Positions 7,951-13,992 of a stretch of DNA of 64,000 nt are shown here, in pieces. The notes under the pieces were generated by a model. The model did not search any database, was not told where the DNA came from, and was given only the letters and a program-made list of their open reading frames with translations. The translations under genes were made by a program, and so were the position numbers. Every line of letters begins with the position of its first letter. Position 1 is the stretch's first letter. Origin of the DNA: Escherichia phage 121Q. The DNA lies in the sequence record NC_025447.1; one strand, 5' to 3'.

Positions 7951-10647
7951 ATGTCAAAGAAAATATATGGTGGCTTGGATGTCACACATAATGTGACAGT
8001 TAATGGTAAAAGAACAATACAAGGTATCAATGATCAAGTATTTGATGCTAATGGCAATATGGAGCTAGATACTTATTCAAGAGATGAAGTACTAGATATC
8101 GTCAGTATGATGCCAATTTCCCATTATGGGTCACAAAACTATCTTCCTGCTGGTGTATCTGGTGATTTCAATGGTGCATCTGAAAACCAGTCCCAACGTA
8201 GAAATAAAATTTTATTAGAAAACGATGGTACACTCGTATTATTACGTAGTGGTACAAACGGTAGTGTTGAGGGATTATATTATTCATATTTGGCTAACGC
8301 ATTATCAGTTGATGACATGAGCCGTACAATTAACACCAGTCGTCAATACAAGCCTGGTTTTTTCGGTTCAAATCGCGTCGCAATTGGCTTATACAATACT
8401 GATCCAAATATTTTACTCGGTAGATATGTAGACACTTCTAACAGTACTAATGGATTGTTTATTTCTATTACTAATGGTACATTAGATGATAAATTACATA
8501 CTGGTTTTTTTGTAAATCAAGCAGATATTTGCCCTGAAGGTGGTATAGAATTTGCAATGATGGCTGAAGATGGTTCAATCTATGTCTTTAGTGTTCTTAA
8601 TGAAAATAACCAACTACAGTTAGTTGTTGTCCGAGTTGTATATAATATTAGCAATGGAACATATACGGCAACTCGTATTACAGGATGGACTACAAAAACA
8701 TTCTATAATACAACTTATTCTGCACAGAATAACATGGTTATTACTAATCAAGTAACTTCAACTAATATAGCAGATAAGCCTTATGTGTATGTACCACAAA
8801 ACCTACGTGGTATTGGGATTTATATGACATCCATTGATTTGTATGTTGCACAGCAACCAGGAACACAGAACTTTCGTTTTAGAATGAATGGTGATGCATG
8901 GTTTACAATGGCGACATATAATGCCCGACCACAACATAGCTACAGCTTTGCATTTAATATGAGTACTAAACAATGCACCCTAGACGCTGGGAATGACATA
9001 GGTTCATATCAAGCACCATTGGTTATAACCAATACTGGTTCTGCATTAGTGCCTACAGGTAACGTTTTAAATAATGATCCATTATATAATCATGCTAATG
9101 CAAGAAACATTTATAGTTCTTATTTTTACTTAAGTTCAGGTGAAGCTTTTTGTACTGTGTGTCCAAACTTAGCAGAACCATTACTTATGCAAAAAGCAAA
9201 GTTTCCTATACAAATTGTTTATAGTATGATTAACGTTCGTGCAGTACAATCAACTGATTTTAAAGGTGGAGTTGTTAGACCATCCTTTGGTTCAGCAGTT
9301 GGTTCATTTATTAATGGTGTGGAGTTGTTACCAGATAATAGTACTAAACAATATTCACGTGCGTCTGGTAGTGGTGGGTTTAGACCATCATATGCAGTTC
9401 ATAAAAGTACTCCTAATTTTACATTTAAATCATTATCTTTAGGAACCATACAAGGTTATGAACCTACAACTGAACGTGGTTATGTAGATGATAATGCCAA
9501 TAATAGAATTTTCATTAGTAGTATTTCAGGTTCAACTGTAACAACTAATGGCGGTATTTTTATGGTTGGTCAACGTTATTCACAATCATTTTCATATGAT
9601 AAAAACTTAAATGGTACTGGTGTTATTAGTGTTACACAATCAGTTCTAGATAACTTTAGAAATACAGAATATGCTAAAGTTCTAAGTGACTGGAACTTAT
9701 CTTCACAAGCTTATCGTGATATGACATTATTTGTTCCACAACAAACTGACATTCCGGCTTTTGTTATGTTGAGTACTATAACAAATGACTATAAAAACTA
9801 TATTAGAATTGCTGAAGTTAACGTTAATACTAGAGTTGGAAATATAACATCTATTACCTTTAAGCGTTTAGTACTAGAAAATACATATGGTGAAAACTTT
9901 ACACCTAATGGTAATGGTTCGATTGCATCTTCTTCTGTTGGGTTAACAATTTATGATGGTGGTTCATTCTACTTCATTGGTGGTTCTGACCCATTAACAC
10001 ATCCAACAATAGGAAATACAGCAACTCATCAATTTAGAGCATATGTAACTAAATCAACTGCACAATTTACAAGTTTTGTTATTACTGGTTCTCATGCCAG
10101 TTATGAACAAGGAAGACAACCCACTGCGTTGCCTGGTATTGGATTTGGTATTTTTGATCCACTGGATTATACAAATAAAATGTCATTTCAAAAATATGGA
10201 ACAACGATAGCCGACTATAATAACTGGACTCCACAAGGTAGCCCAATTAACGTAGTATCACAAGACGTTGCTCAAGGGTTTATTGTTTATTTTACAGAGG
10301 AAACACCAGTTATACTATCAGGTAAGTCTTTTACACTACCAGTTTCAAATATTGATTTGAGAACTATAAAATCTAATCCAGCAAATACAACATTTTATGT
10401 ATATGTTAAATTAGAACAAGGGTTGGCAAACTACTACATAACTACTGATGTTATTTCCGAAACAGGAACAACTGCATATAATATTTTTTGGATAGGTACT
10501 ATTCAAACTAACGCAATTCAAATCGAAACTATTAATATACAAAAACGTTCACGTTTAGATATATTTGGTGCTTCACTTGAATCAGCAGGTTCATCGTTCC
10601 CAGTTAGCTACGGTCTACCATCACAAACAGGAACCATAAACTGGTAA
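7951..10647 (+). CDS. tail fibre protein, paralog 1
   Basis: 898 aa, Thr/Ser/Asn/Gly-rich; shares N-terminal block (LLRSGTNGS..GLYYSY) and C-terminal block (VVSQDVAQGF.VYFT...KSNPANTTFY ... SSFPVS.G.PS.TGT) with ORF 11263..13992. Confidence 0.7.
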   Translation: MSKKIYGGLDVTHNVTVNGKRTIQGINDQVFDANGNMELDTYSRDEVLDIVSMMPISHYGSQNYLPAGVSGDFNGASENQSQRRNKILLENDGTLVLLRSGTNGSVEGLYYSYLANALSVDDMSRTINTSRQYKPGFFGSNRVAIGLYNTDPNILLGRYVDTSNSTNGLFISITNGTLDDKLHTGFFVNQADICPEGGIEFAMMAEDGSIYVFSVLNENNQLQLVVVRVVYNISNGTYTATRITGWTTKTFYNTTYSAQNNMVITNQVTSTNIADKPYVYVPQNLRGIGIYMTSIDLYVAQQPGTQNFRFRMNGDAWFTMATYNARPQHSYSFAFNMSTKQCTLDAGNDIGSYQAPLVITNTGSALVPTGNVLNNDPLYNHANARNIYSSYFYLSSGEAFCTVCPNLAEPLLMQKAKFPIQIVYSMINVRAVQSTDFKGGVVRPSFGSAVGSFINGVELLPDNSTKQYSRASGSGGFRPSYAVHKSTPNFTFKSLSLGTIQGYEPTTERGYVDDNANNRIFISSISGSTVTTNGGIFMVGQRYSQSFSYDKNLNGTGVISVTQSVLDNFRNTEYAKVLSDWNLSSQAYRDMTLFVPQQTDIPAFVMLSTITNDYKNYIRIAEVNVNTRVGNITSITFKRLVLENTYGENFTPNGNGSIASSSVGLTIYDGGSFYFIGGSDPLTHPTIGNTATHQFRAYVTKSTAQFTSFVITGSHASYEQGRQPTALPGIGFGIFDPLDYTNKMSFQKYGTTIADYNNWTPQGSPINVVSQDVAQGFIVYFTEETPVILSGKSFTLPVSNIDLRTIKSNPANTTFYVYVKLEQGLANYYITTDVISETGTTAYNIFWIGTIQTNAIQIETINIQKRSRLDIFGASLESAGSSFPVSYGLPSQTGTINW

Positions 10648-13992: not shown

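What the first reader, a model, noticed from the sequence alone, without database searches (positions are those of the whole stretch)
7951..13992. Three paralogous fibre-type genes sharing N- and C-terminal modules around divergent centres
ORFs at 7951, 10659 and 11263 share conserved terminal blocks (for example KSNPANTTFY and the C-terminal SSFPVS.G.PS.TGT) while their middle regions differ; the 195-aa member looks like a cut-down version. This modular pattern suggests alternative receptor-binding proteins assembled on a common attachment and tip scaffold.
Basis: seen in the sequence. Interest (0 to 1): 0.45.

Follow-up and report, generated by a model that had tools for sequence, protein, structure and literature searches.

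The report
Three paralogous jumbo-phage tail-fibre-type virion genes
Three neighbouring late genes of a giant E. coli phage encode related particle proteins, two large ones with sugar-binding-type propeller bodies and one that has lost the body but kept both end pieces; they probably form part of the tail's host-recognition apparatus, and no one has characterised this family.

Summary
The window is an Asteriusvirus jumbo coliphage (100% identical to SHEFM2K). ORF1 (7951-10647, 898 aa), ORF2 (10659-11246, 195 aa) and ORF3 (11263-13992, 909 aa) are true paralogues. The "divergent centres" are still homologous (23% identity, E 8e-19), so this is whole-gene duplication, not module swapping.

Each large protein has four parts:
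- a ~60-aa N-terminal junction module;
- a ~700-aa beta-propeller body resembling lectins and sialidases, without sialidase motifs;
- a ~95-aa beta-sandwich with the fold of siphophage receptor-binding-protein "shoulders" and TssK;
- a conserved 30-aa tail.

ORF2 is the orthologue of a full-length middle paralogue in relatives (CBB_148, Yen9-04 g138). It lost the propeller region in frame and remains under purifying selection.

The trio is one late transcription unit: terminator, ATAAATAC motif, three tightly spaced genes, terminator. This layout is conserved across genera. Orthologues are virion proteins by mass spectrometry (phAPEC6 gp323c; Goslar gp26/27/28, equimolar at about 13 copies per virion). 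In chimalliviruses the same cassette is fused to the phiKZ gp131-type fibre-attachment domain.

Most likely these are co-assembling baseplate-periphery or fibre host-recognition proteins. Their location and ligands are inferred, not shown.

The parts
7878..7896 (+). Intrinsic terminator closing the upstream nrdD/DUF4326/nrdG unit
   Evidence: Stem of 8 pairs followed by a T-run. It is annotated as a terminator in G17. The hairpin AAGCACCC..GGGTGCTTTTTT is conserved upstream of the first gene in CBB, Munch and Yen9-04.
7909..7916 (+). TATAAATA, a T4-type late-promoter-like motif 35 nt before the ORF1 start codon
   Evidence: It is one of only 2 copies in 64 kb, against 10.8 +/- 3.4 expected. 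ATAAATAC sits at -39 to -42 in G17, phAPEC6, CBB_147, Munch_169 and Yen9-04 g137. ATAAATA has been proposed as the late promoter of CBB and GAP32, and these phages encode a gp55-like sigma factor (PMC5259590; RaK2 gp55).
7951..10647 (+). ORF1, 898 aa, 98.7 kDa; the position-1 paralogue (orthologue of phAPEC6 gp323c, CBB_147, Munch_169, Yen9-04 g137)
   Evidence: phrog_3573, E 1e-274; virion MS.
7951..8133 (+). ORF1 N-terminal junction module (aa 1-61, ending in PISHYG)
   Evidence: HMM A4 domain, E 8e-16. pLDDT is below 50 in the monomer model. The helix plus the P-[IL]-[ST]-x-[YV]-G motif is shared across the family.
8134..10266 (+). ORF1 beta-propeller body (aa 62-772)
10267..10554 (+). ORF1 shoulder-like beta-sandwich (aa 773-868, containing KSNPANTTFY)
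10555..10644 (+). ORF1 conserved C-terminal tail (aa 869-898, ...GSSFPVSYGLPSQTGTINW)
   Evidence: This is the most conserved segment among orthologues, at 0.66 bits. It is disordered in the monomer model, with pLDDT ~30.
10659..11246 (+). ORF2, 195 aa, 21 kDa; the position-2 paralogue without a propeller (N module aa 1-67, shoulder aa ~76-165, tail aa 166-195)
   Evidence: (phrog_26864, E 4e-115). It is orthologous to the full-length CBB_148 and Yen9-04 g138. dN/dS is 0.10. Twelve clusters of 151-202 aa (ten of them exactly 195 aa) share 45-100% identity.
11263..13992 (+). ORF3, 909 aa, 98.8 kDa; the position-3 paralogue (N module 11263-11481, propeller body 11482-13617, shoulder plus tail 13618-13989)
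   Evidence: (phrog_3573, E 1e-266). It evolves faster than ORF1 across relatives: for example Munch 44% vs 60%, EJP2 43% vs 74%.
13997..14020 (+). Intrinsic terminator closing the three-gene unit
   Evidence: Stem of 10 pairs followed by a T-run. It is annotated as a terminator in G17.

Best explanation
The three genes form one late transcription unit. It encodes three non-redundant paralogous virion proteins of an uncharacterised jumbo-phage family (PHROGs 3573, 26864 and 7449).

Each protein has a short N-terminal junction module. This module is a degenerate copy of the repeat-plus-helix element found in gp131-type fibre shafts, and it probably joins the protein to its partners or to a fibre. 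Each protein also has a C-terminal beta-sandwich with the receptor-binding-protein shoulder/TssK fold plus a conserved tail peptide, which probably acts as an oligomerisation and docking hub.

ORF1 and ORF3 carry a ~700-aa beta-propeller body between these ends. That body most likely binds, or possibly cleaves, host surface glycans. ORF2 descends from a full-length middle paralogue, lost the propeller body by an in-frame deletion, and is kept as an assembly-only subunit.

Shown: paralogy, domain architecture, operon structure, the origin of ORF2 by deletion, purifying selection, and virion association of orthologues. Inferred: location on the baseplate or fibres, glycan binding, and co-assembly.
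For: Paralogy and boundaries.

Virion association:
- phAPEC6 gp323c, 98.62 kDa, 4 peptides.
- Goslar gp26 is a full-length homologue (hhalign P 99.9, E 2.6e-36). It is present at ~12.8 copies per virion, next to gp27 (13.8) and gp28 (14.3). gp28 carries the shoulder (hmmsearch E 2e-13; hhalign P 94).
- SPN3US gp168 aa 545-1411 is the same cassette (P 98.6, E 8e-16). gp168 is a tail protein (PMC5105663).

Link to fibres:
- Deimos-Minion gp19 and EL ORF114/115 fuse the phiKZ gp131-like N domain (BLASTP E 1e-18, 5e-7 and 5e-12) to the cassette. gp131-like N domains were fitted at the fibre-attachment sites of the phiKZ baseplate (PMC13250141).
- In Xoo-sp14 the trio lies directly after a gp131/Goslar-gp25-type fibre gene.
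- Goslar gp26-28 lie between the fibre genes gp25 and gp29.

Late operon: flanking terminators, 11- and 16-nt spacers, and a conserved ATAAATAC motif.

ORF2 origin and retention: trees group the paralogues by position. CBB_148 and Yen138 are full-length homologues. dN/dS is 0.04-0.10. Small propeller-less forms recur beside large ones in Agricanvirus, Xoo-sp14 and Goslar.
Against: - No direct localisation exists for any member. The peripheral baseplate was not resolved in Goslar, and phiKZ itself shows no detectable homologue among the proteins tested.
- The phAPEC6 MS support is thin (4 peptides, 5.6% coverage).
- The 'structural' labels on CBB_148/149 rest on homology, not on CBB's own MS.
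- In RaK2-like phages the trio lies beside nucleotide-metabolism genes, far from the main structural module.
- The shoulder fold is at the C-terminus here, the reverse of the known cases, so its docking role is an analogy only.
- The N module and the tail are low-confidence in the monomer models.
Confidence: 0.6

Rival explanations
1. One reading: three alternative, interchangeable receptor-binding proteins made by inserting different central receptor-binding modules into a common attachment (N) and tip (C) scaffold, which broadens host range.
For: The ends are more conserved than the centres, both between paralogues and among orthologues. ORF3 diverges faster than ORF1 across related phages. 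ORF1 shows a separate recombination history (dS 0.51, against 0.02 and 0.10 for its neighbours).
Against: The centres are homologous along their full length (E 8e-19), so no foreign modules were inserted. The three positions have been separate orthologous lineages since before the genera split. No genome among the sequenced relatives inspected carries only one or two of them in RaK2-like phages. ORF2 has no centre yet is conserved. Goslar gp26/27/28 are equimolar in virions.
Confidence: 0.15
2. They build the unusual 'hairy' whisker fibres seen on the tail sheath (three rings) and capsid of phAPEC6 and on the tail of CBB. The genes for those fibres are unknown.
For: phAPEC6 and CBB are hairy and the fibre genes are unassigned. 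gp323c is an unassigned virion protein. CBB hairs and baseplate fibres end in small globular knobs, which a propeller trimer could form.
Against: The model is a compact all-beta globule with only ~60 residues of possible stalk, so it cannot form a 119-nm filament. The family is also present in GAP32, Goslar, EL, SPN3US and about 170 other jumbo phages not reported as hairy. Copy number is low in Goslar, at ~13. By the CBB authors' reasoning, whisker genes should be absent from GAP32, yet GAP32 has all three.
Confidence: 0.1
3. The propeller bodies are virion-borne enzymes (sialidase or glycosidase-type depolymerases) rather than lectin-like binders.
Confidence: 0.15
4. ORF2 is a decaying remnant (pseudogene) of the middle paralogue and has no function.
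For: It lacks about 720 residues that are present in CBB_148 and Yen138. It is not annotated in phAPEC6.
Against: The deletion is in frame and falls exactly at the domain boundaries. Twelve homologue clusters (151-202 aa; ten of them exactly 195 aa) share 45-100% identity. dN/dS is 0.10. The gene keeps an 11-nt coupling spacer. Analogous small forms recur in other lineages, and Goslar gp28 is in virions at the same copy number as gp26.
Confidence: 0.03

Closest known systems
phiKZ gp131-gp135 paralogous baseplate-fibre family (gp131 C-terminal seven-bladed propeller, PDB 4GBF; cryo-EM atlas PMC13250141)
   Same: Both are tandem paralogues in a jumbo myovirus, with shared terminal assembly regions around different bodies and a beta-propeller as the distal, presumed host-binding domain. 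Both are virion proteins at the baseplate periphery, and co-assembly of paralogues into one fibre complex has been proposed for phiKZ. In Deimos-Minion gp19, EL ORF114/115 and SPN3US gp168, the gp131-like N domain is physically fused to the cassette found here. The N segment of the Xoo-sp14 members matches gp131 aa 302-345.
   Different: The window proteins lack the gp131-like N domain (hhalign P 0.2). Their propeller region is about twice as large and has no detectable sequence similarity to gp131. They end in a shoulder-like sandwich plus tail, which gp131 lacks.
N-terminal 'shoulder' domain of siphophage receptor-binding proteins (lactococcal p2 ORF18, phage 1358 RBP), SPP1 gp22, and the TssK N-terminal domain of type VI secretion baseplates
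   Different: Here the domain is at the C-terminus, after the presumed binding body, and is followed by a conserved 30-aa tail. There is no sequence similarity. The trimeric state and the docking partner are unknown.
Goslar gp26/gp27/gp28 (Chimalliviridae; bioRxiv 10.64898/2026.04.21.720040)
   Same: These are true homologues. gp26 aligns over the full length (P 99.9). gp28 is a small propeller-less shoulder protein like ORF2. The three genes are adjacent, and their products are virion-associated and equimolar at ~13 copies.
   Different: Goslar has one large and two small members instead of two large and one small. The conserved C-terminal tail peptide is missing. The genes sit between fibre genes rather than beside nrdG. 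That paper does not discuss them and their location was not resolved.
SPN3US gp168 (giant Salmonella phage tail protein; PMC5105663)
   Same: It contains the whole propeller-plus-shoulder cassette (aa 545-1411). Proteomics of mutant particles showed it to be a tail protein, and it belongs to a paralogue family.
   Different: It has 1727 aa, with a ~540-aa gp131-like N extension and a ~315-aa C extension that are absent here.
Six-bladed fucose lectins (AAL, AofleA) and GH33 sialidase propellers
   Different: Only ~230 of ~700 residues superpose. Sequence identity is 5-9%. There are no Asp-box or FRIP motifs.

Membership tests
PHROG 3573 / 26864 / 7449 (phage protein families of unknown function) | Significant full-length match to the family profile | tested here: met
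   ORF1 scores 1e-274 and ORF3 1e-266 against phrog_3573. ORF2 scores 4e-115 against phrog_26864. All three also match phrog_7449 positions ~540-1376.
RBP shoulder / TssK N-terminal domain fold | Beta-sandwich fold superposable on the p2 RBP shoulder, SPP1 gp22 and the TssK N-terminal domain | tested here: met
RBP shoulder / TssK N-terminal domain fold | Domain lies at the N-terminus, before the neck and head (receptor-binding) domains | tested here: not met
   Here it occupies aa 773-868 of 898, after the propeller body. In 548 cluster representatives the module is almost always at the extreme C-terminus.
RBP shoulder / TssK N-terminal domain fold | Forms a trimer that docks on a baseplate adaptor (Dit arm, BppU, TssF/G) | not testable with these tools
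   Only monomer prediction was available, and no partner has been identified.
phiKZ gp131 paralogue family of baseplate fibres | gp131-like N-terminal attachment domain (~aa 1-250) | tested here: not met
   hhalign of A1 against gp131 gives P 0.2. The domain is present in chimallivirus proteins that carry the same cassette, such as DM19 (E 1e-18) and EL115 (E 5e-12).
phiKZ gp131 paralogue family of baseplate fibres | Tandem paralogues sharing terminal assembly regions, with a beta-propeller distal domain | tested here: met
   This is a resemblance in organisation, not sequence homology of the propellers.
GH33 sialidases | Asp-box repeats (S-x-D-x-G-x-T-W) and the FRIP arginine motif | tested here: not met
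   Regular-expression scans of ORF1 and ORF3 found none, even with relaxed patterns. There is no Pfam hit.
Chimallivirus DUF7941 filament proteins (Goslar gp22/gp23) | DUF7941 domain, with head-to-tail filament formation | tested here: inconclusive
   No Pfam family scored at E <= 1 beyond chance-level hits. I did not verify that DUF7941 is in the Pfam copy used. The fold description in the paper (globular N-terminal domain, linker, C-terminal domain) does not match a propeller.
T4-type late genes of RaK2-like phages | (T)ATAAATA motif shortly upstream of the gene, in a phage group that encodes a gp55-like sigma factor | tested here: met
   TATAAATA lies at 7909-7916. It is conserved at -39 to -42 in four genera, and it is depleted elsewhere in the window. 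The gp55-like sigma factor is documented. Transcription timing itself was not measured.
Virion structural proteins | Detected in purified particles by mass spectrometry | tested here: met
   From the literature: phAPEC6 gp323c is the ORF1 orthologue, and Goslar gp26/27/28 were detected. The ORF2 and ORF3 orthologues were absent from the phAPEC6 annotated gene set, and so presumably from the MS search database, so they remain untested in Asteriusvirus.

The most novel reading that the evidence does not exclude
The three gene products may form an obligate 1:1:1 hetero-oligomer, most simply a pseudo-threefold heterotrimer. It would be held together by the three N modules and the three C-terminal shoulder sandwiches. 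In such a complex one subunit can lose its entire propeller body without loss of function. That would be a new way of building an asymmetric phage receptor-binding head, with the shoulder hub at the distal C-terminal end instead of the proximal N-terminal end.

Five lines of evidence point this way:
- The position-specific orthologues are conserved across genera.
- The three genes are tightly coupled in one operon.
- Trios of two large and one small member recur in three distant lineages (Asteriusvirus/Munch, Agricanvirus gp18/19/20, Xoo-sp14 146/145/144), and Goslar has one large and two small.
- Goslar gp26, gp27 and gp28 occur at equal copy numbers (12.8, 13.8 and 14.3 per virion), close to the twelve peripheral fibres seen in phiKZ.
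- Known shoulder domains are trimeric.
Probability: 0.3. Interest if true: 0.65.

Novelty: new variant of a known kind. Interest (0 to 1): 0.42.

Why it matters
Jumbo-phage adsorption machines are the least resolved parts of recent cryo-EM atlases. The peripheral baseplate and fibres could not be built in Goslar, and were only partly built in phiKZ. In Asteriusvirus phages, which are being proposed for therapy, these three genes are annotated as 'hypothetical' in nearly every genome record inspected.

This analysis gives a domain map and an evolutionary logic for a family found in about 170 cultured jumbo phages and 548 metagenomic clusters. It links the family to bona fide fibre proteins of chimalliviruses. 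It also identifies a natural deletion experiment, ORF2, that separates the assembly modules from the presumed binding body.

That yields concrete candidates for host-range engineering and for fitting unassigned density. It also yields a testable hypothesis of a heteromeric receptor-binding complex. The gain is incremental, not a new biological principle, unless the heterotrimer model proves right.

Tried and rejected
1. phiKZ gp27 has the same 898-aa length and is the outer-baseplate framework protein, and gp26 is its partner. Neither shows similarity to the family (hhalign P 0.07 and 0.24).
2. phiKZ gp145 and gp146 show no similarity. gp131 itself shows none either.
3. RaK2 gp098, a baseplate secondary receptor-binding protein, has a different architecture: T4 gp34-like beta-helix plus a pyocin-like tip. 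The 55-105 kb stretch of RaK2 holds the structural module and gp55, but the trio is not among its annotated genes; no sequence search of this stretch was run. I did not scan the rest of RaK2.
4. Pfam, NCBIfam and PADLOC gave nothing meaningful. PDB sequence searches with the full-length and small-family profiles gave nothing significant. The one weak hit, phiKZ gp49 (E 0.44), is recorded but not used.
5. The 929-aa 'tail fiber' gene at 18000-20789 and its 178-aa neighbour share no modules with the trio.
6. The 'structural protein' label on CBB_148/149 turned out to rest on homology, not on CBB's own MS.
7. The BFVD fold search returned only uncharacterised virion proteins.
8. The sigma-70 promoter scan was uninformative: 30 sites against 37 expected.
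9. Model coordinates are not exposed by the tools. I therefore could not count propeller blades or map the invariant residues in 3D.
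Full report
**Identity of the window**

The 6-kb region is 100% identical to Escherichia phage SHEFM2K and 99.8% identical to G17 and Sharanji. It is about 94% identical to PBECO4, phAPEC6 and slurp01. The window therefore comes from an Asteriusvirus, a RaK2-like jumbo myovirus of about 350 kb. In all of these close relatives (the 25 records listed) the three genes are annotated 'hypothetical protein'; a few more distant Asteriusvirus records (EJP2, CMSTMSU) label the position-1 homologue 'minor tail protein'. In phAPEC6 only the first gene is annotated at all.

**Checking the observation**

ORF1 (7951-10647, 898 aa), ORF2 (10659-11246, 195 aa) and ORF3 (11263-13992, 909 aa) all lie on the + strand. 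They are separated by 11 and 16 nt.

- ORF1 and ORF3 align end to end: 27% identity, E 2e-61.
- ORF2 aligns to the first ~65 and the last ~120 residues of both. The C block gives E 1e-16 and 7e-24; the N block gives 6e-7 and 1e-3.
KSNPANTTFY is in ORF1 and ORF3 only. SSFPVS.G.PS.TGT is in ORF1 and ORF2, and ORF3 has SAIPASTGVPSGPGT.
- The centres are not unrelated. Taken alone they still give 23.4% identity over 735 residues, E 8e-19.
- ORF1/ORF3 identity by region is N 30%, centre 22.5%, shoulder 51% and tail 38%. Among 33 position-1 orthologues the same gradient holds.
- No other ORF in the 64-kb window carries either module.

This is duplication with uneven divergence, not a mosaic of foreign centres.

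**Anatomy**

AlphaFold2 with 38 homologues gives a confident model of ORF1 (mean pLDDT 84.9, pTM 0.79). Residues ~80-770 are all-beta at pLDDT above 90. The first ~68 and last ~30 residues are below 50.

The conserved C module is thus an RBP-shoulder/TssK-type sandwich. Unusually it lies at the C-terminus, and it is followed by a highly conserved tail ending in an invariant Trp. Pfam, NCBIfam, PADLOC and PDB sequence searches are empty. PHROGs files the proteins under families 3573, 26864 and 7449, all of unknown function.

**Origin of the 195-aa member**

In Pectobacterium phage CBB (CBB_147/148/149), GAP32 and Yersinia phage fHe-Yen9-04 (g137/138/139), the syntenic site after nrdG holds three full-length paralogues. 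In Asteriusvirus and the Munch group the middle one is 195 aa.

Trees of the C modules group the proteins by position, not by phage; in the N-module tree ORF2 and Munch_170 group with CBB_148, although Yen138 falls outside that group. ORF2 clusters with CBB_148 and Yen138 in the C-module tree. CBB_148 and Yen138 are homologous to ORF1 and ORF3 along their whole length.

ORF2 is therefore the orthologue of a full-length paralogue that lost ~720 residues in frame. The deletion falls exactly between the PxS/TxYG junction and the start of the shoulder.

ORF2 is not decaying:
- Twelve clusters, ten of them exactly 195 aa (the others 151, 198 and 202 aa), share 45-100% identity.
- dN/dS against phAPEC6 is 0.10. 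For ORF1 it is 0.04 and for ORF3 0.04.

**Transcription unit**

Strong intrinsic terminators sit at 7878-7896 and 13997-14020. TATAAATA lies 35 nt before the ORF1 start. It is one of only two copies in 64 kb, where 10.8 +/- 3.4 are expected. The arrangement of terminator hairpin, ATAAATAC at -39 to -42, and AGGGA ribosome-binding site is conserved before the first gene in G17, phAPEC6, CBB, Munch and Yen9-04.

The CBB authors proposed ATAAATA as the late promoter of structural genes and noted a gp55-like sigma factor. RaK2 also encodes gp55. So despite lying next to nrdD/nrdG, the trio is an independent unit that is probably expressed late.

**Evidence that the products are tail or fibre components**

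- phAPEC6 gp323c, the ORF1 orthologue at 98.62 kDa, was found in purified virions (4 peptides). The ORF2 and ORF3 orthologues are intact but unannotated in that genome, so presumably absent from the MS search database, and could not have been found.
- Goslar gp26 is a full-length homologue (hhalign P 99.9, E 2.6e-36). It lies between the fibre genes gp25 and gp29. Quantitative virion MS in that study gives gp26 12.8, gp27 13.8 and gp28 14.3 copies per virion. The fibre proteins gp25 and gp29 are at ~87 and ~75. gp28 is a 169-aa shoulder protein. gp27 shares the N motif of gp28.
- SPN3US gp168, shown to be a tail protein, contains the whole cassette at residues 545-1411.
- Deimos-Minion gp19 and phage EL ORF114/115 fuse the phiKZ gp131-like N-terminal domain to the cassette. 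In the phiKZ atlas, gp131-like N domains were fitted at the fibre-attachment sites of the outer baseplate.
- In Xanthomonas phage Xoo-sp14 the trio (146 small, 145 and 144 large) directly follows a gp131/Goslar-gp25-type fibre gene. The N segments of its members resemble gp131 residues 302-345.

Among cultured phages listed the module is found in jumbo phages (genome records above 200 kb), in about 170-177 records. In 1.84 billion cluster representatives it occurs in 548 clusters. These fall into discrete length classes: ~190-200, ~225-245, ~890-980 and ~1130-1175 aa, plus a few longer. The module is nearly always at the C-terminus. The ~235-aa class consists of a coiled coil, a 'DNPH..T.AQ.G' motif, the junction, the shoulder and the tail.

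**Most likely mechanism**

Three non-redundant late virion proteins assemble through their conserved ends. The two propeller bodies provide host-surface (glycan) recognition at the baseplate periphery or on fibres. ORF2 contributes only assembly modules.

Co-assembly is an inference. It rests on five points:
- position-specific orthology;
- the tight operon;
- recurrence of trios with one or two propeller-less members in distant lineages;
- the equimolar Goslar numbers;
- the trimeric nature of known shoulder domains.

Homotrimers at ~18 copies each fit the MS error range equally well.

**Rivals**

- Interchangeable receptor-binding proteins with swapped centres are contradicted by the homologous centres and the stable three-lineage structure.
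- A role as the 'hairy' sheath or capsid whiskers of phAPEC6 and CBB is unlikely. The fold is compact, the family occurs in many phages that are not hairy, and copy number is low. Terminal knobs on such fibres cannot be excluded.
- An enzymatic role for the propellers remains open.
- A pseudogene status for ORF2 is essentially excluded.

**Leads that failed**

- phiKZ gp26, gp27 (also 898 aa), gp145, gp146 and gp131 show no similarity.
- RaK2 gp098 is a different protein.
- The CBB 'structural protein' label is homology-based.
- phiKZ gp49 gives only E 0.44.

**Novelty and verdict**

The finding is real. The family is catalogued but uncharacterised. It belongs to the broad, known class of phage adsorption proteins.

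Its architecture is a new variant in three respects. The shoulder fold is at the C-terminus. The propeller body is very large. Propeller-less partner subunits recur.

Interest is moderate. It would rise if the heteromeric model or a specific receptor were demonstrated.

Noticed in passing
window 14060-14626, 14633-15154, 15151-15660 (+): A second tandem trio of paralogues lies immediately downstream: 188, 173 and 169 aa, with BLASTP E 2e-15 and 9e-5. None has a Pfam match. All are conserved as hypothetical proteins in G17 and 121Q.
   Followed up: partly
window 7909-7916 and 17335; whole window: TATAAATA is strongly depleted: 2 copies against 10.8 +/- 3.4 expected. The shorter ATAAATA occurs 7 times on the + strand. 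One copy is at 17335, just upstream of the 178-aa (17462-17998) and 929-aa (18000-20789) gene pair. The phAPEC6 orthologue of the 929-aa gene, gp314c 'tail fiber', is a virion protein. The motif looks like a usable marker of late or structural units in this phage group.
   Followed up: partly
L002 (phAPEC6 MK817115) 5709-9042, equivalent to window 10659-13992: The phAPEC6 GenBank record lacks the ORF2 and ORF3 orthologues although both are intact. It annotates a spurious 114-nt gene (gp322c) inside ORF3 instead. Its published virion proteome therefore could not have detected them.
   Followed up: yes
window 7951-13992 compared with phAPEC6: Synonymous divergence is very uneven across the trio: ORF1 dS 0.51, ORF2 0.022 and ORF3 0.10. 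This points to a recombination breakpoint near the ORF1/ORF2 junction and exchange of ORF1 alleles among Asteriusviruses. Across more distant relatives, ORF3 diverges faster than ORF1.
   Followed up: partly
window 7100-7432 (+): A DUF4326 gene (E 6e-24) sits between nrdD (5223-7091) and nrdG (7404-7874) and overlaps the nrdG start by 29 nt. Its position varies in relatives: in CBB a DUF4326 gene lies downstream of the trio.
   Followed up: no
PDB 9xqs_M (phiKZ gp49) compared with the shoulder profile A4: A weak, non-significant match (E 0.44, 82 profile positions) links the shoulder module to phiKZ gp49, which forms the hexagonal ring HR1 of the inner peripheral baseplate. This may be a remote relative. 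It was not used as evidence.
   Followed up: partly
L007 (Goslar) 2872-6487; L006 (Deimos-Minion) 2613-10924; L014 (Xoo-sp14) 3620-10291: Adjacent sets of module-bearing genes with one or two propeller-less members recur in distant jumbo-phage lineages: Goslar gp28/gp27/gp26, Deimos-Minion gp18/gp19/gp20 and Xoo-sp14 146/145/144. The Goslar paper does not discuss gp26-28, although its own Table S4 shows them equimolar.
   Followed up: partly
window 18000-20789 (+): The 929-aa protein called 'tail fiber' in 121Q and phAPEC6 (gp314c, detected by MS) has no Pfam match and no similarity to the trio. I did not examine its fold.
   Followed up: no
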